Shown here in pieces: positions 1,739 to 62,657 of a stretch of 64,000 bases of DNA (within the stretch, counting starts at the first letter, position 1; every line of letters begins with the position of its first letter). The position numbers and the translations under genes are program-made. Below the pieces are notes generated by a model that saw only the letters and a program-made list of their open reading frames with translations, was not told where the DNA came from and did no database searches. Source of the DNA: Octopus vulgaris. Lineage: Eukaryota. Where the stretch lies: positions 19,096,001 through 19,160,000 of the forward strand of contig OX597814.1 in assembly GCA_951406725.2 (NCBI GenBank), read 5' to 3'.

Positions 1739-2645
1739 TCTTTATTGGCCACACAGGGGACAAATACAAATGTAGAGAAAAAAGGAGGGAAAATAAGAAG
1801 AAAATTCCGATTAAAAGGAATCGGGAAAAACAAACGATCAAAAGGGATCGTGTACGACAAAAGAATTTTTTAAATGTGAAAAGTAAGATCAGGTTTAACC
1901 GTGGAAAGAAAAGCCTACGGAAAATACCACGGTAACCTCAGGAAGAGAGGGAATATACACATGAGAGCAACTTTCTCTCTCTCTCTCTTTTCGATTTAGA
2001 GGATCTTGCTCAAAGTGGTTTGGTCACTGGCACACACTCTCTTTGCTACATTCGCCCACCTTTTTTTGAAACTTTCAAGAGACAAATCCTGACTATCCAT
2101 TCTCACCTTCCTTTTCAAGTGGTACTTGAAAAAGTTGATGAGCGATTGGCCAGAGAGGTAAGTGTTTGTCTCAAATCCTTTCGCTCGAGTCATTCCTTCA
2201 ACATGGCCACACATTCTTTCAACATGGCCACCAGCACGATGAAGACTGTCTTGCCTTCCCGGTTGAGGGAAGGTGGCAGCGCAATCTCTACGATAGACTC
2301 GGCCGATAGGCGGACTCGTCCCACATGAGACCACAGCCGTTCGGCATAATCCCACAGATCCAAAATGGTTGGACACTGCACGAGTGCGAGCAGAACGGAT
2401 TCGTCGCTCTTACCGCATCTCGGGCAAATCGGTTCGTTGTGTCTCGAACCGTACCTATAGTGCTTATCCCGAACGGGTAATGCTTCTCGATAGTACTGCC
2501 AGTTGTCCTGAACCGGCGGGTCAGGTGTTCCACGTCGACGCCCAGATTCTGCCCGAGACCGTTGTCGCACCTTCCCTCCACTAATCCTCTATAGAACGCC
2601 TTTGTTGTAATGAAGTCGCACAAGTTTGGTCCCGGACGGCAGAGT
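1739..2645 (-). mobile_element. 5'-truncated L1/Tx1-clade LINE 3' fragment (ORF2 C-terminal zf-RVT region plus 3' UTR)
   Basis: Frameshifted minus-strand peptide REALPVRDK..ICPRCGKSDESVL.ALVQCP..LW (CCHC-type zinc knuckle of L1/Tx1 ORF2), stop at 1996. The 3' UTR ends TGTGTGGCCAATAAAGA and runs into (TCTA)n. Confidence 0.8.
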
Positions 2646-3471: not shown

Positions 3472-3532
<61 letters not shown>

Positions 3533-5998: not shown

Positions 5999-6297
5999 TC
6001 TTTATATATAAAAGTGAAGTTGTGTGTCTGTCTCCTACGATTTAGATTCCTAACTACTCCCACATTTTGCGGTGCAGTTTAACCAAAAGCGGGCATCTTA
6101 TAGTCGTGATTCATATCGAGGCCTTCTGGGTATTAGCGCGCGTCTACGATGAATCTACGATTTTAAAAAAAATTACCATCATTTTTCCACATTTTTAATG
6201 CATTTTCGCTCGGTTTATATAAGGGAAGTAACTCTCTATAAATGCTTATATAGTTATTTCCCTTACAAACCCGAGCAACGCCGGGCGATACTGCTAG
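5999..6297 (+). mobile_element. Non-autonomous Helitron
   Basis: 5' TC, 3' CTAG, subterminal hairpin CCCGAGCAACGCCGGG, inserted between A and T; homologous copies at 33777 and 62258. Confidence 0.9.
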
Positions 6298-6355
6298 TTA
6301 TATATACATATATATGTATATATATATGTATATATATAGACATACATATATATGC

Positions 6356-10599: not shown

Positions 10600-11250
10600 A
10601 GCTGGCAGAAACGTTAGCACACCGGGCGAAATGCTTAGCGGTATTGCGTCTTGGCAGAATCGTTAGCACGCCGGGCGAAATGCTTTGTGGTATTTTGCCT
10701 GCCGTTACGTTGTGAGTTCAAATTCCGCCGAGGTTGACTTTGCCTTTCATCCTTTCGGGGTCGATAAATTAAGTACCAGTTACGCACTGGGGTCGATGTA
10801 ATCGACTTAATCCATTTGTCTGTCCTTGTTTGTCCCCTCTGTGTTTAGCCCCTTGTGGGTAATAAAGAAATAGAAATAGGTATTGCGTCTGTCGTTGCGT
10901 TCTGAATTCAAATTCCGCCGAGGTCGACTTTGCCTTTCATCCTTTCGGGGTCGATAAATTAAGTACCAGTTACGCACTGGGGTCGATGTAATCGACTTAA
11001 TCCATTTGTCTGTCCTTGTTTGTCCCCTCTATGTTTAGCCCCTTGTGGGTAATAAAGAAATAGAAATAGGTATTGCGTCTGTCGTTGCGTTCTGAATTCA
11101 AATTCCGCCGAGGTCGACTTTGCCTTTCATCCTTTCGGGGTCGATAAATTAAGTACCAGTTACGCATTGGGGTCGATGTAATCGACTTAATCCATTTGTC
11201 TGTCCTTGTTTGTCCCCTCTATGTTTAGCCCCTTGTGGACAATAAAGAAA
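10600..11250 (+). mobile_element. SINE family D, nested/tandem trimer
   Basis: Two heads (GGCAGAAACGTTAGCAC) followed by three ~190-bp bodies ending AATAAAGAAA; B-box-like GAGTTCAAATTCC. Confidence 0.9.
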
Positions 11251-13961: not shown

Positions 13962-14193
13962 AAGGTGGCGAGCTGGCAGAAACGTTAGCACGCCGGGCGA
14001 AGTGCTTAGCGGTATTTCGTCTGCGTTACGTTGTGTGTTCGAATTCCGCCGAGGTCGACTTTGCCTTTCATTCTTTCGGGGTCGATAAATTAAGTACCAG
14101 TTACGCATTAGGGTCGATGTAATCGACTTAATACCTATGTCTGTCCTTGTTTGTCCCCTCTATGTTTTTCCCCTTGTGGGTAATAAAGAAATA
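13962..14193 (+). mobile_element. SINE family D monomer
   Basis: Full head and body; GGTAAATGCATGG present upstream (13916) and downstream (14194). Confidence 0.9.
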
Positions 14194-14989
14194 GGTAAAT
14201 GCATGGCTATGCTTGGGCAAGGGTTTTTGAGCAAGTAAGGTATGCAAATAATCCTTCTACACGTTATTGCGCCGGGCAAAATGCTTAACGACATTTCGTC
14301 CGACTCTGAGTATGTCTTTCATGCTTTCTGGATCGATAAAATGAGTACCAGTTGAACACTGGGATCGATGCCATGGACTTACCCTTTCACCCGAAATTGC
14401 TTGTGCCAAAATTTTATAATCAATATTCATCCAATGGAAAGGCCATCGCATAGGAGCCGATACAAGGATGACCTTTGTCACCTGCAAGTGTTGTTCAAAG
14501 GATGGAAACTAGTATCGAATGTTATCTCAACAGATAAACGAGATGTTCTCACAATCCACCGCTTTGGGCTGGTTATGTTTTTATATCGCCTCCGCGACAA
14601 TGATAAAACAAAGTTGACTTCGGCGTGTCGGAACAAATACTACTAGGTATTGTACCCACTGCTTTAACATGCTAAACATACCTTCATCCGTTTGTTAGAT
14701 GCTCATTATTGTGAGTGTTATACTTTTGACTTGCATTCTTCTGGATATAATGTCTAATTTATAAGCAAAAACCTAACATTTTGAGAGAGAGTTAATCGAT
14801 ATTATCGATTCTAGTACTTGATTGGTTCTTTATTTTATCGAACCCGAAGCGATAAAATGCAGAAGTGATCTCGTGTGAATTTGAACTCAGTGGCGCAGAG
14901 TGTCACAACCAATCCAGGAGATGTTCTCGTCAACACAATATCGTATTTGTCAATTCGCTGCCTATTCGTCGTGCTCTATGCCAGTGAAA

Positions 14990-15407
14990 AAGGCGGCGAG
15001 CTGGCAGAAACGTTAGCACGCCGGGCGAAATGCGTAGCCGTATTTCGTCTGACGCTACGTTCTGAGTTAAAATCTCCGCCGAGGTTGACTTTGTCTTTCA
15101 TACTTTCGGGGGCGATTAAATAAGTACTAGTTACGCACTGGAACAATATAATCGACTTAATCCGTTTGTCTGTCCTTGCTTGTCCTCTCTGTGTTTAGTC
15201 CCTTGTGGGTAGTAAAGAAATAGGTATTTCGAATGACGTTACGTTCTGAGTTCAAATTCCGCCGAGATCGACTTTGACTTTCATCATTTCGGGGTCGATA
15301 AATAAAGTACCAGTTTCGCACTGGGGTCGATGTAATCGACTTTATCCCTTTGTCTGTCCTTGTTTGACCCCTCTATGTTTAGCTCCGTGTGGATAGTAAA
15401 GAAATAT
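14990..15407 (+). mobile_element. SINE family D dimer
   Basis: One head and two bodies joined at AAAGAAATA|GGTATTTCG. Confidence 0.9.
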
Positions 15408-17708: not shown

Positions 17709-17890
17709 GGTGCAGCTGCTACTTTCGTAGACCTAGAAGCACTTCATATAATCCGCCAGACTTTGTGTAACTTGTGCTTGTAATGTCCTGGTTCATCCGA
17801 GGTTCTTGTGGCAAATAAAGAAGCTCTTGTTATAATAATAATAACAACAACAACAACAATAATAATAACAATAACAACAACAATAATAAG

Positions 17891-18099: not shown

Positions 18100-18645
18100 C
18101 ACACACAAGTTTGGCTACTGTCGTTTTTTAAGACGTTAGCCTGGTAGCTTCTTGTAGGTAGGCATTGATCTTGGGCTGCTATGATAAACCCTTTTGTCTT
18201 TGATTTTAGGCCAGAAGACAACCATTGATGGGTAAGGGCTTTGTCAACATCGGCATTATTATATCTGTTTAGGTATTTGCCATTCAAAAATTTTTCTTGC
18301 CATTTATCAGTTTCAGCACGGATTTTCATACGCTTAGCTTTTTCTGTACATGTTTCCAGTACGTCAAATTCTGGCATTTTCTGTATATGGAATTCTCTTA
18401 TATATTTCTTGTTTTGTTACTGAGTATGATGTTTTCTTGTTTTCATGCTTTCAGACAAGTTTTAACATCCACCCATCAGAGTTTTTCAAGTAAGTGCTTA
18501 GGCCAATTGTGACAATCTACATTTTTAATTCCAGTTGTAAAAGGCCACAACCACCCTCTTTTCTTGACATGTAAAGTCGTTCTATATTTGTCTTATTGAG
18601 CGCATTCTACGAATTGTCAACAATTTTCGTATTTTTCTATCAAGA
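18100..18645 (-). mobile_element. R4/Dong-clade non-LTR retrotransposon fragment (region C-terminal to the RT core), copy 1
   Basis: Peptide WQEKFLNGKY...HQWLSSGLKSKTKGFIIAAQDQCLPTRSY; frameshifted. Confidence 0.8.
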
Positions 18646-19215
18646 TTACAGATTGCCATAGAGAGGTTTTTCTTGCCATTTATCATTCAGAATATCTAAG
18701 GCAGCAGTTTTAGCACGGGTTTTCATGCGCTTAGCTTTTTCTGTGCTTGTTTCTTGTATGTCTAATTCCGAAATTTGTTGTATTCGGAATTCACTTAGAT
18801 ATTCCTTTGCCTGTTTTGTTACTGAGTATGATGCTTTCTTGTTTTCATGTTTTGAGACAAGTTTTAACATCCAGTCCTCAGAGTTTTTCAGGAAGGTGTC
18901 TAGGCCAATTGTAGTAATCTTCATTGTTATTGCCAGTTGTAAAAGTCCACGGCCTCCCTCTTTTCTTGGCAGATAAAGTCGTTCTGTATCTGCCTTGGGG
19001 TGGTGCATTCTATGCATTCTCAACAGTTTTCGTATTTTTCTGTCAAGATTACATATTTCAGTAATTGACCAGTTAACGATATTGAAACTGTAAGTCACGA
19101 CTGGTATGGGTAAAATATTGATCGCTTCGATCCTGTTTCTTGCGCTCAGCTCTATCTTGAGTAATGCCCTTGACCTGCGATAACATTCTTTTCTGCTCTT
19201 TTCCCTCATCATTCA
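18646..19215 (-). mobile_element. R4/Dong-clade non-LTR retrotransposon fragment, copy 2
   Basis: 188-aa ORF: ELSARNRIEAINILPIPVVTYSF..W....LDRKIRKLL..RMHHPKADTERLYLPRKEGGRGL...WQEKPLYG. Confidence 0.85.
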
Positions 19216-19217
19216 AT

Positions 19218-19412
19218 GTTTAGCATGCTGGGCAAAATACTTAGTAGTATTTCGCCCGTCTTTACGTTCTGTGGTCAAATTCCACCGAAGGCGATTTTGC
19301 TTTCATCCTTTTAGGGTCGATAAATTAAGAACCAGTTTCGCACTGGGGTCGATGTAATTGACTGGTCCCCTCCTCCAAAATTTCAGGCCTTGTGCGTATT
19401 GTAGCAAATATA
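19218..19412 (+). mobile_element. Divergent SINE D-related element with an alternative tail
   Basis: Shares TTTGCTTTCATCCTTTTAGGGTCGATAAATTAAG..CTGGGGTCGATGTAAT; tail like 22910-23125. Confidence 0.7.
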
Positions 19413-21155: not shown

Positions 21156-21564
21156 GCTGGTAGAATCGTTAAAACGCTGAGCAAAATGCTTTGCGACATT
21201 TCGTCGGCTTTGATCTTCCGAGTAAAATCAGAGTAATCCTGGATCTTTGGTGTTCCTTGGTTTGATGTATATACATTTATCGTATTCCACCGTCTTTTCC
21301 ATTTGTTTCTCCTCACCTTTAAAGTAATTCCCCGCACAAACTATTGTTTGTCTTTGTGGTGTACTCCCTCATCTAACCCCTGTGGCTAATAAGTGAAATC
21401 ATCTCTATCATTGTTATTGTCGTTGTTGATGTCACTGTTGCCATTATAAATATTTTTGTTGTTGTAGTAGTAGTAGTAGCAGTAGTAGTAGCAGCAGTAG
21501 TAGCAGCAGTAGTAGTAGTAGAGGTAGTAGAGGTAGTAGAGGTAGTAGTAGTAGTAGTAGTAGT

Positions 21565-22907: not shown

Positions 22908-23125
22908 TAAGGTGGCGTGCAGGCAGAAAGGTTAGCACAACGGGCGGAATGATTAGCGGCATTTCGTCTGTGTCTATGTTCTGAGTTCGAATTCCGCTGA
23001 GATCGACTTTGCCTTTAATTCATTTGGGGTCGAAAAATAAGTACCAGTTTCCTACTGGAGTCGATCTAATCGACTGGCCTCCCGCCCCCAAAATTTCGAG
23101 CCTTGTGCCTTGAGTAGAAAAGAAT
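22908..23125 (+). mobile_element. SINE D-related variant
   Basis: AAGGTGGCGTGCAGGCAGAAAGGTTAGCAC head, GAGTTCGAATTCC box, alternative tail. Confidence 0.75.
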
Positions 23126-23754: not shown

Positions 23755-25135
23755 ACATGGTGGTTGTCTACTCCTTCTACAGAGTTTGACCACCTCCTGT
23801 ACCTACACCTTAGCATCATCATGACGTCTGTGGTAGCTTTTTACACCAGATAATGTTCTAAAAAGACACCACATAGATTGTACCTCTAATTTGGACAAAC
23901 CAATACCTGCAGGTAAGTTCTTCTCTTTGTGGATCTTAATACGTCTTTTGAGGCCTCCGTTGGATTTGCAAATCTTCTGGCATACACTGCATTCAAACGT
24001 GTGCACAGACATATAGGCAGAATAGTTGGTGGAGATTCGTGTTCCATGCATTCATCTTCTCGATCGTTGCATTCTTCCTTAGATCTCTTTTAAGTCTTAC
24101 TTGTGTTATCCTGGCCTCTTCAAATGCTTTTACTCCACTCCACACCTTTGTTCTCCATTCACCTCGATCGGAAGCAAGCGTTTCTGTATCCCTGAAACAA
24201 TCCCAAGTGACTTCGTAGTAGTCTTTATGCCGTCCTTAAACCCTTTTTTTAAGGTTTACGCCGATAGTGTTTCCTCTCAGCAAGCTCACCATAAAACTGC
24301 TGTTTCGATATGTGTTCATTTGCCACACCATCTCAATTTGTTCCTCAAAATCATAGCTTTGAGGTGATGCTTGAGATGCAAGGAAATCTGTGTTTGGAGT
24401 AAAAGAACCCCATTTAATTTTTAAAATGCGATGAAGGCATTTTTGGTGGAATTTTTCTAACAATTTAAAATATCTTTCGTAACAAGTCCAAATTTCACAG
24501 AGATGGTAAGACAAATGATTTGTAAAGAGCCAGCTTTGTATTCTTGTTTATATGTTGCTGGCACCAAACGCGTGTCTCCAAGCCACCAAATGTTTTAGAT
24601 GCACTTTGAATCAGCAGCTGTATTTCTGTATCAAGATTTCCATCATTTTGAACAGAGCTTCTAAGGTAGACGAACGAATCGACAACCTCAAGTAACTTTC
24701 CCTTAACAAAAATGTTAGTGAGGTTACAAACAACACCACACGCAGGTTGATGCATTACAACTGCTTTTTTCAAGTTGATGGTGAAGCCAAAATCCTCACA
24801 AGCTGAGTCAAATGCATATACAAGAGATTGCAGACCTGTTTCAGAATGACTGACAAGATCGCAATCGTCAGCATACAAAGTTTCCTAATGTGTGAACTAA
24901 AAACCTTCGTTTTGAATTTCAGTCTGGTTACATTAAAAACATTCCCTGTTATTCGATATTTTATGTAAAAACCCGCCTCAGTGTTTTGAAAAGCATGTGA
25001 CAATACAGCCTCAAAGTATATTGCAAAGAGGGTGGGTGCACCAAGGTCTCCTTGCTTTACTCATTTTCCACAGCAAAAGATTCAGAGAGCCTACCACCAA
25101 AATTAACTCATGAGTGCTACTGGTAACATGTTATC
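23755..25135 (-). mobile_element. RTE (BovB-like) LINE, 5'-truncated and frameshifted
   Basis: VKQGDLGAPTLFAIYF, YADDCDLV..SETGLQ, FGFTINLKK, CEIWT, LEKFHQKCLHRILKIKW, C-terminal CSVCQKICKSNGGL zinc finger. Confidence 0.9.
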
Positions 25136-25906: not shown

Positions 25907-26139
25907 AGGCGGGGAGCTGGCAGAGAGGTTAGCACGTCGGACGAATTGCTTAGTGGTATTTCGTCTGCCGCTACGTTCTGAGTTCAAATTCCGCCGAGGT
26001 CGACTTTGCCTTTATTCCTTTCGGGGTCGATTAAATAAGTACCAGTTACGCAATGGGGTCGATATAATCGACTTAATCCGTTTGTCTGTCCTTGCTTGTC
26101 CACTCTCTGTTTAGCCCCTTTGTGGGTAGTAAAGAAATA
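25907..26139 (+). mobile_element. SINE family D monomer
   Basis: TSD GGT(G/A)TTTTGATA (25895-25906 and 26140-26151). Confidence 0.9.
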
Positions 26140-26612
26140 GGTATTTTGATACCGAGCATGAAGTGTCATAATACACGCTACTCTTTTCCAATATTCAGAC
26201 GGCTTCCTGACATCCAAGACAGCCTAACAAACGGTGTTGGTGGGTTTATGTCCACGTGACTTAGAGACTCACCATAAGAGCCCGATGCATTATGTATTAG
26301 CACTGCAGTTTATTCATTCAAATAGAATTCTTGAAGAGGGTACCCTGACATGGGCACTGACTAATGAAGGAAACAAGTAAAACAAAAAACATAACCGATA
26401 CTTACATATATATTCATGTGTGTGTGTGTGTGTGTATGTATATGTATATAATGCACGCACGCACACACACGCGCGCACAGATATGCAGCCACAGGGTTTT
26501 GTTATTTTGTAATTCAAGATACTTTTTGTATTGTATGTTACACCCTTGTGGCCAATAAGAAATTTATCATTCTTGGTATTTTTCTAATTTAGACGATGTT
26601 ATTGTGGATATT

Positions 26613-28917: not shown

Positions 28918-29335
28918 GTATATATGTATGTATGTATGGATGTATGTATGTGTATATATATATATATATATATGCATGCATATAAGTGTACAAGACGTCA
29001 TCAACGGTGCAAATAACATGGAATACTTAAACAAACGAATTAACTAGTATACACCGAGAAAAAATGGAAAACAGGACAAGTAAACAGAGAAAGGACAGTT
29101 GTCGGCTGTCCTCATTTCCAACATTCAATCACAATATGAGTCTTCAAAGACAGGTGCTCCCATAAATTCTAAAATAAAATTTAGGCTTTATGGAGTGGCA
29201 AAGTTGGGAACAAAATCATGGCAGTGGAGACGTACAAAGAAACCTAACGAAAACAAACATGAAGGGTCGTTAGACCAGAACGATAGGAAAATAGTGAACG
29301 CTGGGAGAAACATCTTTTTCAAAAGAGTTAATATA

Positions 29336-29545
29336 TGTTTCTTTATTAGCCACACAGGGCTGCACACAGACAGGACAAATTACAACTTAGAGCTTTTCTT
29401 TTGGGGGTAAAAAAAGGGGGTTTGGTTTTCGATCAAAAGGGATCGTAAAGGGAAAGAAAGAGGACAAAAAAAGGGGGGAATAAAAAAAAAGTTTTTTAAG
29501 GAGGGGGGAGAGGAAAAAAAATGATCAATAGGGATCGTTATCACA
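29336..29545 (-). mobile_element. Tx1-like LINE 3' UTR fragment with 16-bp TSD
   Basis: Homologous to 44862-45120 and 1739-1860; TSD CAAAAGAGTTAATATA at 29320-29335 and 29546-29561. Confidence 0.85.
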
Positions 29546-29957
29546 CAAAAGAGTTAATATAATATGAGAGAGAGTAAAAAAAACGTCTATTGTTTGAAAG
29601 TCCGTGCAAGAACAGAAAGATGGTCATCTGAGGAAAAGAAAGATGGACGATGGACACCTGTGAGCAACGAGAGAGAGAAAGAAAAAAGAGAAAGAGGGGA
29701 GACAGAGAAATTTATATATCTTCTCCAAGAGAATGTAAGTAATTTTCGCTAATATTTGTGAAAATTATGAGTAATTTAAATTTGTTTCTTAAAAGCAGTG
29801 TAATAACTCGGTACACTTTATCGTTAGATGTTCATCGACCACTCTTCTGATTACGTTTCATACAAGAAAATTTGAAAAATTGTTACTGCCAAGAACGTTC
29901 CATCTAAATATTATATGAGCGAACGCACGCGCTTGTGTGTGTGCATCTGTGTGCATA

Positions 29958-30372
29958 TACTCTTATACTTGTTTCAGTCATTTGACTGCGGCCATGCTGG
30001 AGCACCGCCTTTTAATTGACCAACTCGACCCAGGGACTTATTCTTTTTGCAAGCCCAGTACTTATTCTATCGGTGTCTTTTGCCGAACCGCTAAATAACG
30101 GGGACATAAACACACCAGCATCGGTTGTCAAACAATGCTAGGGGGACAAACACAGACACAAACACATAGATGCATATATATATATATATATATAGATATA
30201 CATATATACGACGGGCTTCTTTCAGTTTCCGTCTACCAAATCCACTCACAAGGCTTTAGTCGGCCCGAGGCTATAGTAGAAGACACTTGCCCAAGTTGCC
30301 ACGCAGTGGGACTGAACCCGGAACCATGTGGTTGGTAAGCAAGCTACTTACCACACAGCCACTCCTGCGCCT
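29958..30372 (-). mobile_element. SINE family C, full length
   Basis: Head AGGCGCAGGAGTGGCTGTGTGGTAAG...GGTTCAGTCCC; body ending GAAACAAGTA. Confidence 0.92.
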
Positions 30373-30587
30373 ATATGGTAAGAATGTCTTTAGATTCCAA
30401 GGAAATACTATTAACTGACTGGTCATGTGCTCGGTGTTGCAAAGACCAAAACATTGATTTTGGATGACACGACTAGATTACTTGGACTAACGAAGAAAGA
30501 AACGTGATTCCATCAGCTGTGAAATTCAGTATGGCAGACTGAAACCTTGACATTTCGTTTCGTTGCAATTGCAAATCGTTATTGTTA

Positions 30588-31532: not shown

Positions 31533-32303
31533 TATCTCTTTACTACTCACAAGGGGCTAAACACAGAGGGGACAAACAAGGACAGACAAACGGATTAAGT
31601 CGATTACATCGACCCCAGTGCGTAACTGGTACTTATTTAATCGACCCCGAAAGGATGAAAGGCAAAGTCTACCTCGGCAGAATTTGAACTCAGAACGTAG
31701 CGGCAGACGAAATACCTATTTCTTTATTACTCACAAGGGGCTAAACACAGAGGGGACAAACAAGGACAGACAAACGGATTAAGTCGATTATATCGACCCC
31801 AGTGCGTAACTGGTACTTATTTAATCGACCCCGAAAGGATGAAAGGCAAAGTCGACCTCGGCGGAATTTGAACTCAGAACGTAACGGCAGACGGAATACC
31901 TATCTCTTTACTACCCACAAGGGGCTAAACACAAGGGACAAACAAGGACAGACAAACGGATTAAGTCGATTATATCGACTCCAGTGCGTAACTGGTACTT
32001 ATTTAATCGACCCCGAAAGGATGAAAGGCAAAGTCGACCACGGCGGAATTTGAACTCAGAACGTAACGGCAGACGAAATACCTATTTCTTTATTACTCAC
32101 AAGGGGCTAAACACAGAGGGGACAAACAAGGACAGACAAACGGATTAAGTCGATTATATCGACCCCAGTGCGTAACTGGTACTTATTTAATCGACCCCGA
32201 AAGGATGAAAGGCAAAGTCGACCTCGGCGGAATTTGAACTCTGAACGTAGCTGCAGATGAAATACCGCTAAGCATTTCGCCCGGCATGCTAACGTTTCTG
32301 CCA
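31533..32303 (-). mobile_element. SINE family D tandem tetramer (~184-bp units)
   Basis: One head at 32260-32303 and four bodies joined at AAAGA(A/G)ATA|GGTATT. Confidence 0.92.
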
Positions 32304-33060: not shown

Positions 33061-33305
33061 CACACACACACATACACACACACATACATACACACACATA
33101 CATACATACACACATACATACATACATACATATACATACATACATACATACATACATATACATACATACATACACACACACACATGCACACACACACAGT
33201 ATTGAAGCTTGAGAACAATCAGATACATTTGCAACACATCTGTTGAAAATATTATTGTTCACACACATACATATACATATATACATACAGACAGACAGAC
33301 AGATA

Positions 33306-33341
<36 letters not shown>

Positions 33342-33389
33342 ATCCAGCATGGCCACAACCTCAAGGCTGAAACATATAAAAGAATAACA

Positions 33390-33755
33390 GAATATAAATG
33401 TGTGCAAAGTACAAGAAATATTAATGCAGTATATGGGGATTGGACAATAAGCGTAAGGCAGTGTCAATGGTGGTTCCAGAAATCCCGAGCCATAAACTAC
33501 AGCCTAGAAGACGAGCCTCATCCTGAAAGATCTGTAGAACTCGACAAGGACATCCTGAAAACCCTGGTGGAACAAAATATCATCGTAACTGTTGAGGAAC
33601 TAGCAGAGAAGCTTGGATTTGGTCATTCAACCATTCATTGACACCTGTGTGCTATCGGAAAAGTCAGCAAATTGGGTCAATGGGTTCCTCACGAACTTTC
33701 CGAGTCTAATTGCATGCAGAGAGTGAATGTATGCTTTTCTTTGCTGTCATATCTC
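33390..33755 (+). pseudogene. Mariner transposase N-terminal (HTH) fragment
   Basis: RNINAVYGD..ISVRQCQWWFQK...SLEDEP...TVEELAEKLG..HSTIH*HL..IGKVSKLGQWVPHELS. Confidence 0.9.
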
Positions 33756-33776: not shown

Positions 33777-34410
33777 TCTATATATATAAAACTGTAGTTG
33801 TGTGAGTGTCTGTCCCCTTCGATTTAGATTCCTAACTACTCCCACATTTTGCGGTACAGTTTAACCAAATTCGGGTAGCTTATAGTCGTGATTCATATCG
33901 AGCCTGTCTGAATATTAGCGCGCGTCTACGATGAGTCTACGATTTTAAAAATAATTTAACATCATTTTTTATTCCATTTTAATGCATAATTTTTCGTGTG
34001 TCGATGGCGGCGGAGTTGGCGTCCACGCTCACACCTGCACCTGTGGGGAAGGGAGTGTAAGGAAATCAACGTCGTAATGCGTTGTCAAGGAGACCAGTGT
34101 TCTTTTAGAACAACGACTTTATGGCTTGAAGACACCAAAACAGAAATGGCTAAGAAAGCGTCTACATGAGTCTACGATTTAAAAAAAATTTACCATCGTT
34201 TTTTTCCATTTTAATGCATTTTTTCGCTATTATATAAGGGAAGTAACTCTCTAAAAATGTCTACGATGAGTCAACGATTTAAAAAAAAATTTACCATCAT
34301 ATTTTTTCCATTTTTAATGCATTTTTTGCTATTTTTTGGCTATAACTCTCTAAAAATGCTTATATAGTTATTTCCCTTACAAACCCGAGCAACGCCGGGC
34401 GATACTGCTA

Positions 34411-34411
<1 letters not shown>
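33777..34411 (+). mobile_element. Non-autonomous Helitron (longer variant with internal repeats)
   Basis: 5' TC, 3' hairpin plus CTAG, A|T target; homologous to 5999-6297. Confidence 0.9.
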
Positions 34412-34449
<38 letters not shown>

Positions 34450-35804: not shown

Positions 35805-36029
35805 TCTTTTACTCTTTTACTTGTTTCAGTCATTTGAATGCGACCATGCTGGAGCACCGCCTTTAGTTGAGCAAATAGACCCCAGGACTTATTCTTTGTA
35901 AGCATAGTACTTATTCTATTGGGCTCCTTTTTGCCGAACCGCTAAGTTACAGTGACGTAAACACATCTGCATCGGTTGTGAAGCGACGTTGGGGGGACAA
36001 ACACAGACACACAAACATATACACATACA

Positions 36030-36116
<87 letters not shown>

Positions 36117-36294
36117 CATACATACATATATTCATATATTCGACAGGGTTCTTTCAGTTTCCGTCCGTCTACCAAATCTACTCACAAGGCTTTGGTCAGC
36201 CCGAGGCTATAAGTAGATGAAACTTGCAGTGGGAATGAACTCGGAACCATGTGGTTTGTAAGCAAGCTACTTACCACACACCCAATCCTGCGCC
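35805..36294 (-). mobile_element. SINE family C
   Basis: Homologous to 29958-30372, with a small internal deletion and an expanded TA tract. Confidence 0.88.
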
Positions 36295-37014
36295 TTAGGA
36301 GTAGACGTTTTTCAAGGTGTCTTGAAAATGGATTGAACTCCAAAACACGTGGTTCAATAGCAGGTTTGTTTACCATACAACATGCCTATTTACATAGAAT
36401 TTTTCGTCATATGTGCATTCGTGAAGTTTTGCATATTTCTTGAGCGTGGAAGTGGAATATTCTACCTAAGATGTTGTTCCCTCTTTGTATACAATACATG
36501 TCTATTGACACTTATATGCTCTGAGTTTAGAAAAATAGCATTTGATTTCACGTTACCCGAAACGCTGGACCTCTTCCTAAACACGTAGGTAGGACTATCC
36601 CTCTAGTTTATAGAGGAAAAGCTTGCGAAGCGTCGGTAAACAAATATAAAGTATTATCACCAAATATTATAATGTCTAAAGTCCATTTCCAACCAGATGT
36701 ATTCTTAGTCTAAGTCAGTCCTTGAAAATAAACTAAAACAAAACAAAACAAAACAAAACAAAAAAGAGGTAAACAAAGAAACAAAATTACAGCCTTGCAG
36801 AGATAATGGGAACGGTAAGGAATTAGTTTGATATCATCCTATCTTTGGCGTCTTGCCATTTTGGCATTACTTATTTTGGCGACCCGCTACGATCTTCCAA
36901 ATCAATCGGGATTCCGTTCAAAACCAATATTACTGAATTAGAAACGAATGAAAGAGCCTTCAAAATGACATCTCTTCTTTCACCTCATCCTTCCTACATA
37001 TCTTAGTACTCCTT

Positions 37015-41512: not shown

Positions 41513-42061
<549 letters not shown>

Positions 42062-42074
42062 ATATATGTGTGTT

Positions 42075-42206
<132 letters not shown>

Positions 42207-42208
42207 TA

Positions 42209-43454
42209 TCAGGCTGGTGCAAAAGTAATTTCCGATTTAAAGAGCTAAGGTTAAAATGAATAAGCCAATGACTATGGAAATATTTATTCATTAACATACT
42301 TACCATTGCTTTCAGTGACCTCATTCCATCTTTCAACAACCTTATAACTGCCTCGCTTGTAAAATCCTTTAGGTTTAGAACCAAAATATGAATCTCTTCT
42401 CTTGTTTTTAACCTAAGTCCATAAAAATGGTTCTGTAATCCTCGGTACAAATGGTAATCAGAAGGAGTAAGGTCAGGAGAATATGGAGGATGAGGCAGTA
42501 TTTCCCATCCAATTCTTCCAAGAGAGTTTTGGTCAGTCGAGCTGTGTGAGGACGAGCATTATCGTGATGGAAGATGACACCCCGTCTGTTAACCAAGGAT
42601 GCTCGCTTTTAGCTCAGAACAGTTTTCTAACGACGAAGTTGCACACAGTTAAGATTAGCATTAATTGTTTGGCTGTTGTCCAACAGTTCATAATGGATTA
42701 CTCCTTTAATACCCTACCATGCACTCAACATGATCTTCTTTGGCTGAAGTCCAGCTCTCGGTTGTTGAATTTGGCCGTCCTCTTCGACTGATCCAAGAAC
42801 GGCGGCGTTTAAAATTATGGTAAAGAATTCACTTCTCATCACCTGTAACAAGCCTGTCTAAAACTGTTGCTTGAAAGTTTCGCGAAAGCAATGATTGACA
42901 ACAAGCAGCACGCTGTTGTCGATTCCCTGGAGACAGCTCGAGAAGGACCCATTTTCCAGCCACTGAAACCTACTCAATGTGTTTTAGCAGGCGTACCACG
43001 GTTGTATGGGCCACGTTTAACTGTTTTGCAAGTTCCCTAGTGGTAACAGAAGGGTTCTCTGAAACAAGAGATTCCAACATTTCGGAATTAAGTTTTGGGG
43101 ACGACCCTCTTTTGGTCCTTCTTTCAAAGTGAAATCCCCTCTTCGGAAACGGCAAAACCACCTCCTGCACCTTCTTTCATTCACTACATCATCCCCATAA
43201 ATGCTCTGAATGGATCTTGCTGCCGCACTTGCATTAACACCTTTATGAAACTCGTAGAGTAAAACATTTCTTATGTGATCTTTAGATGGGACAAATATGG
43301 TGGTAAAATTTTCTGAGAATTATGGCCAGAAGTTAGATGATCTGAAAGAAAATAGTACAAATTAGACACAGAGATATCTTAAAAGAGGTTAGAAAATTAA
43401 TAAATTTGATCTGAAACACTTTTTCTAGAAATCGGACTTCACTTTTGCACCAAC

Positions 43455-44861: not shown

Positions 44862-45120
44862 GTTTCTTTATTGGCCACACAGGGCTGCACACAGATGGGA
44901 CAAGTTACAAGGTAGAGCTTTTCTTTTGGGGGATGAAAACAAAAAAACAAAGGAAACAAAAAAAAGGTGGCGTAGGTTTTTCGATCAAAAGGGATCGTAA
45001 AAGGGAAAAAAAGAACAAAAACTAAAAAAAAAAGGAAAAGGAACAAAAGAAAAGAGAAATGAAAAAAAAAACAGGGGGAAAATGGGGAAGAGGAAAAAAA
45101 ACGATCAATAGGGATCGTGT
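44862..45120 (-). mobile_element. Tx1-like LINE 3' UTR fragment embedded in (GATA)n
   Basis: Same 3' end as 1739 and 29336; (GATA)n on both sides (44777-44860 and 45122-45238). Confidence 0.85.
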
Positions 45121-45177
45121 TAGATAGATAGATAGATAGATATATATATAGATAGATAGATAGATGAATAGATAGAT

Positions 45178-45238
<61 letters not shown>

Positions 45239-45576
45239 TGCGAGCATATGGACGTGCACACTCACGTATATATGTACTCACATTGCTCTCAATTACAGCT
45301 TGTTGGTCATGCTGGGGCACAAAATGCAGAATCTTTTTATCGATTAGACCATCGTTGTCATAAAGGCTTCGGATAACAAAATCAGTCATATTTGCAAATG
45401 TGCATTTGTAGTGTAACACATATAAGTATATTGACCGATGTGCCGGCGAGCGAAACGACTTTTACACAGTTACTTTTTCTTCTTTATCCCTCTCCATCTC
45501 TTTCTTTCTCTCTCGCTAGACATATCTTCTTCAGCCCATTCTGTGTATCTCTCTCTCTCTCTCACACACACACACA

Positions 45577-45694
<118 letters not shown>

Positions 45695-46479
45695 ACACAC
45701 ACACACACACACAGACACACACACACAAATACACTTTTGCTCCGGCTCTTTTTTTTTTATTCATCTTCCTTTATCCTTCGTCACATCCATTATTTGTCTA
45801 TGTTTTAAAAACAGCCACTTTACAAAATATACATCATGCTGTAAATATCGATATTTCCTACGCGGAACCCTCTTTAATATCGATCACTGGCCAATATCTT
45901 AGACAAACTTAGAACGCCAATGTCAGAAGATATCCAAGTATTATGTGAAGTTTTTGACGTTTATGCAAAACATATTTGTTTAGTTTACAACTGCTTCGAA
46001 TTTATGTCTCTTCAGTTGAGAAGTTTGCAGACATGTCTGCGAATATTCCCATAACCACAAAATAATACTTTGCTTCAGTGTGTGTAACCTATTTTCTTTT
46101 TAATGACGAAGTCAACGGAGAAATGTCAACACCTGTCAATCTTTTTCGAGCATCTATGTCATGAGAGAATGAAGGGTCGAATGGTCGAATTGCTTATCAT
46201 ACTGAAGATCAGACTGGAGAGCGTATGCATCAGATTTGGTTCCACCAAAGTCACCCACCAACCAGCTGATGGTATTAGACTAAGCGATGCAGTAACTGGA
46301 GTAACTCTTCCGATGTGCTTCCACGCAGTTTCCCCTCTATCAGCTTTCAATCGAAATTAGATTAAAAATTAATGATACCCACACATTGTTTTATTGATGA
46401 GTTACGTTGAGGAGTTATATCTTGGTAATGTAAGCAATATCAAAGGCAATTAGAACTAATCACGTGACATGCAGGAAGG

Positions 46480-47401: not shown

Positions 47402-47636
47402 AAAGGCGGCGAGCTGGCAGAAACGTTAGCACGCCGGGCGAAATGTTTAATGGTATTTCGTCTGCGGTTAGGTTCTGAGTTCAAATTCCGCCGAGGTTGA
47501 CTTTGCCTTTCATCCTTTCGGGGTCGATAAATTAAGTACCAGTTACGCACTGGGGTCGATGTAATCGACTTAATCCGCTTGTCTGTCCTTGTTTGTCCTC
47601 TCTGTGTTTAGCCCCATTGTGGGTAGTAAAGAAATA
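47402..47636 (+). mobile_element. SINE family D monomer
   Basis: TSD AGGTATAGAAAGTCA (47376-47390 and 47636-47650). Confidence 0.93.
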
Positions 47637-48499
47637 GGTATAGAAAGTCACCAAATTTTCTAAGAAAATAAGAATTTGGAGACTATGCATTTACTGAGGA
47701 ACAATTCCTTCATTTCTTTCCTTTTAACAAACCTTATTTTTACCACTGAGTGTGTGCGTGTGTGTATGTGTGTATGTGCGTGTGCATATGGGTGTGTTTG
47801 AGAGAGAGAGAGAGAGAGAGAGAGTGAGTACGTGTGCGTGCGCGGGTATTGATATATATATGAATAAATAAAACAAAATAATCCTCAACAAAACTTACTA
47901 ATTTGGCCAATATTTTCCTTATAATTTTTCAATGTTCTCATTTCATAATTAGCATAATTATCACTGATAATTGTTATTTATATTAATGTTGAAATTATAT
48001 TATTACATTATTTAAATTTTATTCATCGATTTATTTGCATTGTTCAGGAAATATTTGTTTTCTTTAGTAGTTTTTAGTTATATATTATATTTCTTGTAAT
48101 TTAATTTTTTAAAATTTTCACTACGTTTTAGTTTTTCGTGAGTGTGAAGAAAATGCTCACATCTTGATTATTTGAATTTGTATTGGCTAATTTTACCAGA
48201 ATATATTCAGTGACTAATTTACATTTTCTTCCTGTTTGCCTGCTCATACGTGTGTATGATTGTATGGTAGCGACAGAGAGTAGAAATGAGGGAGAAAAAC
48301 ATAATGAATGAAAGAAAGAGGCACAGAAAATACTAAATTTTTATTCGTATAAAAATCTCTTCACTGTCCATGAGCAATAAATGATAAAAGCCCGTATGTC
48401 GTCTCGTAGCTTTCCTCTCACTAGGCTACGATATTTACAAACACCGCCATATACTGAATAAATTGTAACCGAGCGATGTACTCAAAGATAAAAACTACG

Positions 48500-48922
48500 G
48501 GAGTGGCTGTGTGGTAAGTAGCTAGTTTACCAACCACATGGTTCCGGGTTCAGTCCCACTGCGTGGCATCTTGGGCAAGTGTCTTCTGCTATAGCCTCGG
48601 GCCAACCAAAGCCTTGTGAGTGGATTTGGTAGACGGAAACTGAAAGAAGCCCGTCGTATATATGTATGTATGTATATATGTGTATATATATATATGTGTG
48701 TATGTTTGTGTGTCTGTGTTTGTCCCCCTAGCATTGTTTGACAACCGATGCTGGTGTGTTTACGTCCCCGTCACTTAGCGGTTCGGCAAAAGAGACCGAT
48801 AGAATAAGTACTGGGCTTACAAAGAATAAGTCCTGGGGTCGATTTGCTCGACTAAAAAAAGGCGGTGCTCCAGCATGGCCGCAGTCAAATGACTGAAACA
48901 AGTAAAAGAGAAAAGAGAAAGA
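48500..48922 (+). mobile_element. SINE family C, near full length
   Basis: GGAGTGGCTGTGTGG head through AAGAGAAAAGAG tail. Confidence 0.92.
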
Positions 48923-49379
48923 GATAGAAATAATTTATTTTGATATTCGACTTTCAGATCCAAGAGCTGAGTAGAGTGAGTACAATTACTGAAATATAAT
49001 ATACATAGGCGCAGGAGTGGCTGTGTGGTAAGTAGTTTGCTTACAATGGCTCCAATTGGTGGTTGCAGGAGTACCTGCCGGCCGCAAAAGAGTTAATTGA
49101 GGGAGTAATGTAAGAGATTTATCGCTTCCATATGTATAACATTTGTTTCCTTTGTGATGGACTTCTAGTCCAATTTTTTAATATATATTTGTAAGAGGTT
49201 TAATACCTGTATATATATTGTTTTTAAAGAACAATGTTTTAGAGAAGCAGAGGGTCTGCGGGTGTTTTCTGTCTTCTGCCATCTTTATCATTCGCCTCAT
49301 TAATGTCTTGTCCAGCCCGCAAAGCTACATATCTGTGTACTGCCTTTATGGCAAATGATACAAAATAAAATAAGATAAA

Positions 49380-49727
49380 GTAGCATGCTTACAAACCACA
49401 TGGTTCCGAGTTCATTCCCACTGCATGGTATCTTGGGCAAGTGTCTTCTACTATAGCCACGGGCCGACTAAAGCCTTGTGAATGGATTTGGTAGGCGGAA
49501 ACTGAAAAGAAGTCCGTCGTATGTATGTATGTATGTATGTATGTATGTATGTATGTATGTATGTATGTATGTATGTATGTAGGTATGTGTGTGTGTATAT
49601 GTTTGTGTGTCTGTGTTTGTACCCCAACATCGCTTGACAACCGATACTGGTGTGTTTACGTCTCCGTAACCTAGCGATTCGGCAAAAGAGCCTGACAAAA
49701 TATGTACTTGGCTTACAAAGAATAATC
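49380..49727 (+). mobile_element. SINE family C fragment (its head appears displaced to 49007-49045)
   Basis: Homology to 48500-48922. Confidence 0.8.
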
Positions 49728-52908: not shown

Positions 52909-52911
<3 letters not shown>

Positions 52912-53292
52912 CAGGAGTGGCTGTGTGGTAAGTAGCTTGCTAACCAACCACATGGTTCCGGATTCAGTCTCACTGCGTGGCATCCTGGGCAAGTGCCTTC
53001 TGCTATAGCCCCGGGCCGACCAGTGAGGACTTGAGAGTGAGGACGAACCGACGATGATTATTATGATTTTGATCATTTTGATGACGGCTGTGCTGGTGAT
53101 AATGATTTGACGACAGTTGTTTTTTAACTAATGCTCGAGTACTGGGGTCGATGCAGCTCAACATTCCAAGAGACCGATAGAATAAGTACTGGGCTTACAA
53201 AGAATAAGTCGATTTGCTCGACTAAAGGCGGTGCTCCAGCATGGCCACTGTCAAATGACTGAAACAAGTAAAAAAGTAAAAGAGTAAAAGAG
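52909..53292 (+). mobile_element. SINE family C with its middle replaced by locally copied sequence
   Basis: Head 52909-53022, tail 53168-53292; 53093-53162 duplicates 52695-52764. Confidence 0.8.
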
Positions 53293-58094: not shown

Positions 58095-58510
58095 TATTTC
58101 TTTATTGCCCACAAGGGGCTAAACATAGAAAGGACAAACAAGGACAGACACACGGATTAAGCCGATTACATCGACCACAGTGCGTAACTGGTACTTATTT
58201 AATCGACCCCGAAAAGATGAATGGCAAAGTTGACCTCGGCGGAATTTGATCTCAGAACGTAACGGCAGACGAAATACCTATTTCTTTACTACCCACAAGG
58301 GTCTACAGACAGAGTGGACAAACATGGACATACAAAGGGATTAAATCGATTGTATCGACCCCAGTGCGTAACTAGTACTTATTTAATCGACCCCGAAAGG
58401 ATGAAAGGCAAAGTCGTCCTCGGCGGAATTTGAACTCAGAACGTAGCGGCAGACGAAATACCGCTAAGCATTTTGCCCGGCGTGCTAACGATTCTGCCAG
58501 CTCGCCGCCT
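58095..58510 (-). mobile_element. SINE family D dimer
   Basis: Head at 58460-58510 and two bodies joined at AAAGAAATA|GGTATTTCG. Confidence 0.9.
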
Positions 58511-59212: not shown

Positions 59213-59942
59213 TAGAGAAGAGAGAGGTTTATGAGTATGTATGCATCTATGTATGTATGTATGTATGTATATATGTAGATAGGTAGGTAGGTATGTAGGT
59301 AGGTAGGTAGGGTAGGTAGGCAGGTAGGCTCAATATTATATGTAATTTGTCTCGACTTTATGCATGTCAAGGTATCCAACGACTTTTGATTTAGAGAGTT
59401 TTTCTTATTTTCTAAAAGGGAACAGATGGATAAATGGACTAAAGGCGTTTGTGCTGCTCTGGTAGTAGGGAGTCACAATAATCTGGTGCTTTATGTTGTA
59501 GAGAAATGCAGCCAAATACATTATACAGTTACAGAAAATTTTGGCAATACTTCATGGATATTTTATTTTTACGATATGACGACAGATGTTTCAATACAGA
59601 ACTTTGCAACAGTCTCCTTTTATAAGAAGTTTGCCTATAGGAGGTTTCCGATTCTGAATATATCTCTCATTCCTCTTCTTTTCACTTTTCATATACAGTA
59701 ATTTTACACAAGATTTTTGCAAACATTCAACGTAGTTATGATAGTATATCGTTCATTCTAGCGACCTAGAGAATATAAAGTTATAGGAGCAGATGTGACT
59801 GTGTGATAAGGAGCGTGCTCCCCAACCATATGGTTCCGGGTTGAGTTCCACTTGGGCAATTGTCTTCGACTATGGCCCTGTGAGTGGATTTGGTAGACGA
59901 AAACTGAAAAAAGCCCCCTCGTGTACGTACACACAAACACAC

Positions 59943-60871
59943 ACGTAAAGGTGGACTACTCAACATCCAGGAATGTAAGTACAAAAATTTCCTCTATAAA
60001 TAAAAAATAAATTAAATAATTATTATAATGGCACAATGAATAATAGCTCTAGCAATTATACAACCGATAGTAAAGGGAGTCATAATCAACAGATAAAAAT
60101 ATGTTCATGTCCTGATAAGACTAAATGTAAGCTCTCTAATAATTGTAATGTTGATAATGTAATTTATAAATGTATAGTAAACTCTAAGAACAAGAATAAT
60201 AAAATTATGAATAAGGTTTATATAGGATCTGCAGCTAAAGAAATTAATAAAAGAATCTCTCAACACTACCAGACTTTCAAAATCCTAATTTAAATAAATT
60301 CACGGGTTTAAGTAAATATATATGGAAATTAAAATCTCGAAAAATAGACTACACCATTAGATGAGTATAACAGGTAGAGCCCACTCTTATAACATTGGCA
60401 ATAAAATGTGTTGATTATGTATAACAGAATTTATGAAACTATTACAGTCTAGAGATGAATTATGAAACACATACGATGAACGAGGTGTTAAATGTAGACA
60501 CAAAAGTAAGTTTACTTTCAATAAAATGAAATACTGTACACCCACCCTTGAATCTAATAATCATGCACTTTTGATTTCTACAGCACTTGAATAGATCATA
60601 TAAATAATTAATTAAATATTACTGAAAATTATTTTATAACAAATTATATATTTTTTGGCTAATTCTGAAATTAAATCAGCAGTTTATATTTGCTGCTGAT
60701 AAGTTGGCGCGATGACGGTAGATTTTGAAAGTTTAGAGTATATATTCCCGAGGCATCGATGCTGTTGCCTCCGGAATACATATTCCCTGGCTTCTTTGCC
60801 GATGAGACGGGCCAGTGGTAAATTGATTTAATTAAATTTAATTTAATTTAATTAAGCTGGTTTTCCAAAAT

Positions 60872-60920: not shown

Positions 60921-61162
60921 AACATATACTTCAAACTATATATCAACTATACATGAACTATATATCAACTATACATGAACTCTAAGATATCTGACTCCGT
61001 TGTGTATTATAAATGAATTTCTTGTGTTTGACGGCATGAGCTGTCTCTTTTTATATATAACTTTTTTTGATAAGGTTCATTTCAGGAACTGAAACATGTT
61101 ATAATGTATATATAAAAATTAAAAATTGTATAATACAGCAGCATTTTCGAACTTCATTTTTT

Positions 61163-61223
<61 letters not shown>

Positions 61224-61318
61224 CTCTGCAGTGATAACCATGACTTTGAGCCCCAGTCTCAACCCATGGCTCGCCACTTCAACCTTCATTGATATCCACT
61301 CACCACTATTCACACCAC

Positions 61319-62030
61319 CCGTAAAGGTGGACTACTCAACATCGAGGAATGTAGGTACAATCATTTCTTCTATAAATAAAAATAAATTAAATAATTATTA
61401 TAATGGCACAATGAATAATAGCTCTAGCAATTATACAACCGATAGTAAAGGGAGTCATAATCAACAGATAAAAATATGTTCATGTCCTGATAAGACTAAA
61501 TGTAAACTCTCTAATAATTGTAATGTTGATAATGTAATTTATAAATGTATAGTAAACTCTAAGAACAAGAATAATAAAATTATGAATAAGGTTTATATAG
61601 GATCTGCAGCTAAAGAAATTAATAAAAGAATCTCTCGACACTACCAGACTTTCAAAATCCTAATTTAAATAAATTCACGGGTTTAAGTAAATATATATAT
61701 GGTAATTGAAATCTCGAAAAATAGACTACAACCTTAGATGAGTATAACAGGTAGAGCCCACTCTTATAATATTGGCAATAAAATGTGTTGATTATGTATA
61801 ACAGAATTTATGAAACTATTACAGTCTAGAGATGAATTATGAAACACATACGATGAACGAGGAGTTAAATGTAGACACAAAAGTAATTTTACTTTCAATA
61901 AAATGAAATACTGTACACCCACCCTTGAATCTAATAATCATGCACTTTTGATTTCTACAGCACTTGAATAGATCATATAAATAATTAATTAAATATTACT
62001 GAAAATTATTTTATAACAAATTATATATAT
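61319..62030 (+). mobile_element. Penelope-like element GIY-YIG fragment, copy 2
   Basis: Near-identical direct repeat of 59943-60650 sharing the same disabling stops. Confidence 0.88.
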
Positions 62031-62257
62031 CCTTCAACATAGTTTGAAGATAATAAGAGAAGATAATTTAAATTAAACTATGCGTAGTGGAATTACCTCC
62101 CTTGGTACTATCACCTATAAATTCCCATATTGCTCTGCTATCTTCACTTCCTCTAATCGCCATTTTGAAAGACATCTTGGTTCCATCAAAGGAGGATATG
62201 TATCTTCATTTTTTATGTTATTTTTCATTTTTATTCTGATGTATATTTTATATCTTA

Positions 62258-62657
62258 CTAGCAGTATAGCCCGGCGTTGCTCGGGTTTGTAAGGGAAATA
62301 ACTATATAAGCATTTTTAGAGAGTTATAGCCAAAAAATAGCAAAAAATGCATTAAAAATGGGAAAAAAATGATGGTAATTTTTTTTTAAATCGTTGACTC
62401 ATCGTAGACATTTTTAGAGAGTTACTTCCCTTATTTAATAATGAAAAAAATGCATTAAAATGGAAAAAAATGATGGTAAATTTTTTTTTAAATCGTAGAC
62501 TCATCGTAGACGCGCGCTAATACCCAGAAGGGCTCGATATGAATCACGACTATAAGATACCCGCTTTTGGTTACACTGCACCGCAAAATGTGGGAGTAGT
62601 TAGGAATCTAAATCATAGGAGACAGACAGCACACAACCTCACTTTTATATATAAAGA
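62258..62657 (-). mobile_element. Non-autonomous Helitron
   Basis: Reverse complement of the 5999 family: TC...hairpin-CTAG, A|T site. Confidence 0.9.

What the first reader, a model, noticed from the sequence alone, without database searches (positions are those of the whole stretch)
44862..44915. SINE D shares its 3' tail with the resident Tx1-like LINE: candidate SINE-LINE partner pair
Seen: the LINE 3' end (minus strand) CCTTGTAACTTGTCCCATCTGTGTGCAGCCCTGTGTGGCCAATAAAGAAA aligns with the SINE D tail CCTTGTTTGTCCCCTCTGTGTTTAGCCCCTTGTGGGTAATAAAGAAA. The same 3' end is physically linked to zf-RVT coding sequence at 1739-2645. Known: SINEs borrow the 3' ends of stringent LINEs (mostly CR1/L2/RTE), mammalian L1 needs only poly(A), and Tx1-clade elements are often target-specific. 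Inference: a tail-dependent Tx1/L1 partner mobilises SINE D and could explain its target preference.
Basis: partly seen in the sequence, partly recalled or inferred. Interest (0 to 1): 0.72.

Follow-up and report, generated by a model that had tools for sequence, protein, structure and literature searches.

The report
Octopod SINE sharing a LINE tail
A short jumping element in what looks like an octopus-type genome ends in the same ~45 bases as a resident L1/Tx1-type retrotransposon, which suggests that it borrows that retrotransposon's copying enzyme through a sequence handle, a pairing rarely described for this enzyme group, though not yet proven.

Summary
The shared tail is real. The LINE-type end at 44863-44912 (-) and a second one at 29338 match the SINE D tail at 34/42 and 35/42 ungapped positions. 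They rank 1-2 of 121,764 positions even with the last 10 or 20 nt (the AATAAA region) removed. Sister SINEs with the same head and body carry other tails, so the tail is a swapped-in module. Two corrections. First, the only coding-linked copy (1739-2645) lacks 14 nt of the shared tail; it is tied to the long-tail copies by twin 3'-UTR hairpins, the last 20 nt and collinear UTR, so it is a related subfamily, not the same 3' end. Second, targets differ: 4 of 8 SINE D insertions have TSDs starting (A)GGT, one inside SINE D's own head, whereas 0 of 3 LINE-type ends do (two abut (TATC)n). The ORF2 remnant belongs to an APE-RT-zf-RVT family with an Argonauta relative, nearest to L1 among solved structures; Tx1 membership was not testable. 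Verdict: a probable tail-sharing SINE/L1-Tx1-group pair. No Tx1 tail-sharing pair appeared in 10 literature searches; Repbase and Dfam are unchecked. Mobilisation is inferred.

The parts
44863..44912 (-). 3'-terminal tail shared with SINE D (42-nt ungapped core 44863-44904)
   Evidence: 34/42 identical to the SINE D tail consensus; rank 2 of 121,764 positions
44863..45120 (-). Non-coding LINE-type 3'-UTR fragment with two CGATC-(6-nt loop)-GATCG hairpins (at 45117 and 44997), with (TATC)n microsatellite on both sides
   Evidence: no ORF2 similarity
29338..29545 (-). Second long-tail LINE-type 3'-UTR fragment; 60/66 identical to the 44863 copy at the 3' end; flanked by a 16-nt direct repeat starting TATATT
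   Evidence: (35/42, rank 1)
29548..29668 (-). Diverged upstream extension collinear with the 3' UTR (1860-1971) of the coding-linked copy; either part of the 29338 copy or an older relative it inserted into (unresolved)
   Evidence: best of 628 windows; local p=0.005, anchored p=2e-4 (anchor chosen after the fact)
1739..2645 (-). 5'-truncated, frameshifted LINE 3' end: ORF2 C-terminal remnant with CCHC zf-RVT (about 1999-2641), then about 260 nt of 3' UTR with two hairpins (1850, 1823) and a short-form tail lacking 14 nt; followed by (TATC)n
10600..11250 (+). SINE D nested in SINE D: host head, inserted copy 10652-10878, then two body+tail units that differ by 3 nt
10640..10651 (+). Upstream copy of the 12-bp TSD inside the host SINE D head (downstream copy 10879-10890); both carry the same host-specific substitution
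13963..14191 (+). Full-length SINE D; 13-bp repeat starting GGTA, upstream copy 34 nt from the element in locally repetitive flank
14991..15404 (+). SINE D dimer, ends in (TA)n, TSD of about 11-15 bp not starting GGT
25907..26137 (+). Full-length SINE D; 12-bp TSD, upstream copy GGTG..., downstream copy GGTA...
31535..32303 (-). SINE D tetramer (head plus four body+tail units); 3' flank starts TAGGTA; no TSD found
47404..47634 (+). Full-length SINE D; perfect 15-bp repeat starting AGGTA, upstream copy 13 nt from the element
58097..58509 (-). SINE D dimer; no TSD found
22908..23121 (+). Sister SINE: same head and body as SINE D, different tail (control for tail swap)
19220..19400 (+). Sister SINE, 5'-truncated, same alternative tail type as 22908
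14262..14400 (+). Diverged sister SINE with a further tail type

Best explanation
SINE D is a ~230-nt, probably Pol III-transcribed SINE (A-box head, body shared with sister SINEs) that acquired the last ~42-50 nt of the 3' UTR of an L1/Tx1-group LINE subfamily, represented here by the fragments at 44863 and 29338. SHOWN: tail homology; tail modularity; 12-15-bp TSDs; a related 3' UTR linked to an APE-RT-zf-RVT ORF2. INFERRED: the LINE's ORF2 protein binds SINE RNA through this tail and inserts it by target-primed reverse transcription, so this LINE lineage recognises its RNA 3' end by sequence rather than by poly(A) alone. INFERRED, weaker: SINE D's GGTA(T) bias is set mainly by base pairing between the nicked target and SINE RNA that reads on past the tail into UAGGUAU. 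That motif also lies in SINE D's own head, so copies insert into each other, and unequal exchange then expands them into dimers and tetramers.
For: Tail homology survives removal of the last 10 or 20 nt. It begins about 20 nt after the point where SINE D diverges from sister SINEs, whose tails score only 11-18 against the LINE ends (9 comparisons, best p=0.022 uncorrected). All 5 window matches to the hairpin pattern lie in the three LINE-type UTRs, one with a compensatory stem change; the last 124 nt of the coding-linked copy fold with z=-2.8. The 29338 copy continues collinearly with the coding-linked UTR for about 120 nt. The ORF2 remnant groups with P0079 and Argonauta P0080 at 100/99; relatives carry APE+RT+zf-RVT; the best PDB match is L1 ORF2p (E about 4e-50) against R2 (4e-24). 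No poly(A) run follows any of 14 SINE or 3 LINE-type ends. TSDs were found in 5 of 8 SINE D insertions, 4 starting (A)GGT (post hoc p about 3e-6). The nested insertion carries a host-specific substitution in both TSD copies. 11 of 14 units are followed by (TAGAAA)TAGGTA. The unit consensus has no TTTT, so read-through is possible. At 25907 the downstream TSD copy has the SINE-type base where the upstream copy differs (one case).
Against: No full-length LINE with the long tail was recovered; the two long-tail copies are non-coding, and the coding-linked copy lacks 14 nt of the shared tail. SINE D lacks the LINE's twin UTR hairpins, which may be the real recognition signal. The terminal stem-loop pairs in 86% of cells but shows no covariation (432 of 500 shuffles as high); single-sequence z-scores run from -1.4 to +1.5 and RNAalifold finds only 3 pairs. 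SINE and LINE tails differ by about 17-19% while SINE units are 1.6-9.9% from their consensus, so these LINE fragments are not the immediate donor. The strict B-box pattern matched 0 of 7 copies, and ARAGORN and Rfam found no tRNA similarity. The RNA-pairing model rests on one mismatch that could be a later mutation. Two of the four GGT-type TSDs are 13 and 34 nt away from the element's 5' end.
Confidence: 0.62

Rival explanations
1. One reading: the true partner is a tail-sharing Tx1 subfamily, not sampled in this window, whose endonuclease itself prefers (A)GGTAT. SINE D inherits the target preference from the enzyme, and self-nesting follows because the head contains the target.
For: Tx1 families are often target-specific, and Tx1-dependent SINEU-3 forms tandems sandwiching a TSD that starts AGGT (PMC4494074, passages). 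The window holds at least two LINE subfamilies, and O. vulgaris has 80 L1-Tx1 families (PMC13282606 supplement). The 20 nt of D-specific tail upstream of the homology are unexplained.
Against: 0 of 3 LINE-type ends here are followed by GGTA; two abut (TATC)n and one TATATT. 3 of 8 SINE D insertions end at other sequences. The sample is too small to decide (Fisher p=0.18).
Confidence: 0.2
2. Fossil tail: SINE D captured the LINE end once, by template switch, but is now mobilised non-stringently or by another LINE (RTE, CR1, L2 or Dong/R4); the shared tail is history, not mechanism.
For: Different targets, 17-19% tail divergence, no covariation in the terminal stem, absence of the twin hairpins from SINE D. 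Other LINE types are present in the window (RT fragment at 24498-24884).
Against: The tail is kept intact to the same terminal base in 14 of 14 units. Sister SINEs swap exactly this module, the pattern that marks partner switching (PMC4824008, passages).
Confidence: 0.12
3. The 44863 and 29338 elements are not LINE fragments but a short non-autonomous retroposon (or a chimera that took its end from SINE D), so the match is SINE to SINE and the link to a coding LINE is only the last 20 nt.
For: Both are non-coding and their strong mutual homology starts at nearly the same base, the first hairpin. The coding-linked copy lacks 14 nt and most of the intervening UTR.
Against: Global alignment to the coding-linked UTR scores 73.5 and 51 against shuffle maxima of 29 and 17. 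Shared hairpins; 120 nt of further collinearity upstream of 29545. No Pol III head was seen upstream of either. Even if non-autonomous, they would still derive from this LINE family.
Confidence: 0.05
4. Chance or convergent similarity of a TG-rich stretch plus a poly(A) signal.
For: A TG-rich stretch of another SINE scores 33 against 36 in the gapped test without the last 10 nt.
Against: Ungapped, end-anchored identity of 34-35/42; ranks 1-2 of 121,764 positions on three column sets with wide margins.
Confidence: 0.01

Closest known systems
Tail-sharing SINE/LINE pairs (UnaSINE/UnaL2, CR1-, L2-, RTE-, I/Nimb-tailed SINEs; Ohshima 2013 PMC3747384 Table 1; bivalve pairs PMC11481361 and PMC4824008, passages)
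   Same: Pol III-type head, conserved body, short 3' tail homologous to a LINE 3' UTR end; sister SINEs with swapped tails.
   Different: The partner here is L1/Tx1-group. The table of 58 SINEs lists no Tx1 partner and no mollusc; 'Tx1' occurs 0 times in the main text of both bivalve papers.
L1-clade tail-sharing pairs: maize ZmSINE2/3 with LINE1-1_ZM, Chlamydomonas SINEX-3_CR with L1-1_CR (PMC3747384)
   Same: About 45-nt conserved 3' end shared with an L1-clade LINE, taken as stringent recognition.
   Different: Those 3 are plant or algal, and the maize end has a stem-loop with compensatory changes. This case is animal, has no poly(A) run, and terminal-stem covariation was not shown.
SINEU / Tx1-Mar of crocodilians (Kojima 2015, PMC4494074, passages)
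   Same: SINE inferred to use Tx1 machinery; target preference; tandem insertions around a TSD.
   Different: SINEU has snRNA heads and poly(A), and no LINE sharing the SINEU-1 3' end was found; the link was shared target. Here the tail is shared and the targets seen differ.
Microsatellite-targeting Tx1 families Kibi (TC)n, Koshi (TTC)n and crocodilian (TTCC)n/(TTTC)n families (as described in PMC4494074)
   Same: 2 of 3 LINE-type ends here abut one microsatellite type, (TATC)n.
   Different: Different repeat unit; n=3 in a genome very rich in microsatellites (14,544 of 64,000 bases masked), so preference is not shown.
Octopus tRNA-derived SINEs of Ohshima and Okada 1994 (seen only as citations; the family name OK is recalled) and squamate SINE-derived satellites (PMC10702118, abstract and passages)
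   Same: SINE D may well be one of the described octopus families; tandem SINE-derived units are known in reptiles.
   Different: Identity with OR1/OR2/OK could not be tested (no sequences held). Here a nested insertion with a TSD is visible as the seed of a tandem.

Membership tests
Stringent SINE-LINE partner pair | SINE 3' end homologous to a LINE 3' UTR end beyond poly(A)/AATAAA | tested here: met
   (for the 44863 and 29338 ends)
Stringent SINE-LINE partner pair | The same tail on an element that encodes the RT | tested here: inconclusive
   The coding-linked copy has a short-form tail lacking 14 nt; the family link is by hairpins and collinear UTR
Stringent SINE-LINE partner pair | Conserved 3' stem-loop with compensatory changes shared by SINE and LINE | tested here: inconclusive
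   86% of cells paired but no covariation above shuffles; only 3 consensus pairs
Stringent SINE-LINE partner pair | Concurrent activity (age profiles) | not testable with these tools
   One window only; SINE units are 1.6-9.9% from consensus; only 3 LINE-type fragments
Stringent SINE-LINE partner pair | Tail-dependent trans-mobilisation | not testable with these tools
   Needs a cell assay
L1/Tx1 group of non-LTR retrotransposons | ORF2 with N-terminal APE, RT and C-terminal CCHC (zf-RVT); no other Pfam domain such as RNase H | tested here: met
   On relatives: P0081 and P0087 have all three; P0079, P0080 and P0198 have RT+zf-RVT (5 of 5 scanned); the window holds only the zf-RVT end
L1/Tx1 group of non-LTR retrotransposons | RT closer to L1 than to other clades | tested here: inconclusive
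   PDB: L1 ORF2p E about 4e-50 against R2 4e-24, but only L1 and R2 types were returned; CR1, L2, RTE and I were not compared
Tx1 clade | RT phylogeny grouping with named Tx1 elements | not testable with these tools
   No labelled Tx1 sequence among the hits; the tree has no named reference; the cluster look-up could not be made. RT motif wording looks Tx1-like from recall only
Tx1 clade | Target-sequence preference (frequent, not universal) | tested here: inconclusive
   2 of 3 ends abut (TATC)n
tRNA-derived SINE (SINE2) | A box near the 5' end | tested here: met
   7 of 7 head-bearing copies scanned (pattern recalled)
tRNA-derived SINE (SINE2) | B box and tRNA homology | tested here: inconclusive
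   Strict pattern 0 of 7 (a near match with one extra base is present); ARAGORN 0; no Rfam tRNA hit at E<=10 on one copy
tRNA-derived SINE (SINE2) | Short, non-coding, interspersed, TSD-flanked | tested here: met
   7 loci, 14 tail units, TSDs in 5 of 8 insertions
Known SINE body superfamilies (CORE, Meta, V, Deu, Ceph) | Central domain homology | not testable with these tools
   Three short body motifs were not found in 2 of 3 supplement files of PMC4824008; file 1 was not searched

The most novel reading that the evidence does not exclude
SINE D is the first SINE shown to share a 3' tail with a Tx1-clade LINE, and the first animal SINE with an L1-clade sequence tail. That would mean animal Tx1 reverse transcriptases read their RNA 3' end by sequence, unlike mammalian L1. 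In addition, the SINE steers its own insertion site: its read-through RNA pairs with GGTAT targets, including its own head, overriding the partner's microsatellite preference and seeding tandem arrays.
Probability: 0.35. Interest if true: 0.72.

Novelty: new variant of a known kind. Interest (0 to 1): 0.52.

Why it matters
Whether sequence-specific ('stringent') 3'-end recognition was the ancestral state of the L1 clade is an open question that rests on three plant and algal pairs (PMC3747384). A tail-sharing SINE for an animal L1/Tx1-group LINE would add the missing animal case and give a small, testable substrate (a 45-nt tail and two hairpins). SINEs make up 11.6% of the O. vulgaris genome (PMC13282606), and the octopus repeat passages I read name no partner LINEs for them. 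The visible self-nesting gives a concrete route from a SINE to tandem arrays. The caveat: SINE-LINE tail sharing as such is textbook, and curated repeat databases may already note this pair.

Tried and rejected
1) Word-index search with the 132-aa window fragment against longer proteins: 0 hits among 804 candidates; the exhaustive search then gave 78 hits. 3) Atlas searches gave only generic names, no Tx1 label. 4) The C-terminal tree (30 rows: the window piece and 29 of 198 fetched proteins, picked by hand) places the fragment with the Argonauta-containing group but cannot name the clade. 5) ORF2 remnants upstream of 44863, 29338, 17823, 26563 and 21397: none credible. DNA similarity further upstream was not significant for 45132-45391 (p=0.11) or 29670-29960 (p=0.08). 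6) An older host LINE UTR downstream of 29338: not detected (p=0.6-0.76), so the 16-nt repeat there stays unexplained. 7) Terminal stem-loop: no covariation. 8) tRNA origin of the head: no hit. 9) Ends of other repeat families against the LINE ends: 20 comparisons in the five non-sister rows, of which 15 involve LINE ends, none with p<0.05. 10) The idea that terminal SINE units are more LINE-like is visible only at 1-2 positions in 3 units; not pursued. 11) Literature: 10 searches returned no tail-sharing Tx1 SINE; a 2019 review was not held. Repbase, Dfam and SINEBase were not available, and no eukaryotic genome collection was on hand; the viral and metagenome collections were not searched, and the prokaryotic genome scan was not used as irrelevant. 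No structure or complex prediction was run.

Full report
Setting. The window is AT-rich, non-coding and microsatellite-laden (14,544 of 64,000 bases masked). The closest named relative of its LINE remnant is an Argonauta hians protein, so an octopod genome is the likely source (inference). Self-comparison gives several repeat families. 'SINE D' is the family with 14 tail-bearing units at 7 loci.

Noticed in passing
window 10600-11250 (+), 14991-15404 (+), 31535-32303 (-), 58097-58509 (-): SINE D forms head-to-tail dimers to tetramers whose later units all start at the same GGTATT position of the head; one locus keeps the TSD of the founding nested insertion.
   Followed up: yes
window 1823-1850, 29445, 44997, 45117 (all -): Twin CGAT(C/T)-6-nt pyrimidine loop-(G/A)ATCG hairpins conserved in otherwise fast-changing LINE 3' UTRs, one with a compensatory change; candidate ORF2p recognition signal. 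SINE D and its sisters have a different stem with the same CGAT/ATCG core.
   Followed up: partly
window 17778-17823 (+), 26536-26563 (+), 21340-21397 (+): Three more degenerate ends resembling the terminal TGTGG..AATAA motif; 17807 matches with 1 mismatch (0.05 expected by chance). The 21156-21397 stretch starts with a SINE-like head and has SINE D's length but a poorly matching body. No ORF2 similarity nearby.
   Followed up: partly
window 29322-29337 and 29545-29560 (-): A perfect 16-nt direct repeat flanks the 29338 copy, yet the upstream copy lies inside sequence collinear with the LINE UTR; nested insertion or a longer element, unresolved.
   Followed up: partly
window 3262-3833, 29966-30376, 35822-36295, 41542-42066, 48497-48903, 49377-49725, 52911-53261: Another abundant SINE in two conserved halves separated by an internal (TA)n/(TG)n microsatellite; it shares short body motifs with SINE D.
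   Followed up: partly
window 18308-19212 (-), 24498-24884 (-): Other non-LTR remnants: a tandemly duplicated coding fragment (18308-18654 and 18705-19057) and an RT fragment (RVT_1, E 6e-5); clades not determined.
   Followed up: no
window 33213-33638 (+), 42040-42558 (-): Mariner-like transposase remnants (HTH_48, E 7e-7, for the first; the second judged by eye from its motif, no Pfam hit).
   Followed up: no
window 59940-60651 and 61316-62028: A 712-bp repeat pair flanking an ORF fragment at 61123-61665 that looks like a GIY-YIG/Penelope-type end by eye (recalled; Pfam gave only a weak unrelated hit).
   Followed up: no
window 45282-45389 and 46162-46344 (-): Possible host exons just upstream of the finding (open frames, a splice-donor-like motif after the first); no significant Pfam match.
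   Followed up: partly
window 6011-6298, 33788-34413, 62256-62646: A further repeat family with paired arrangement, not classified.
   Followed up: no
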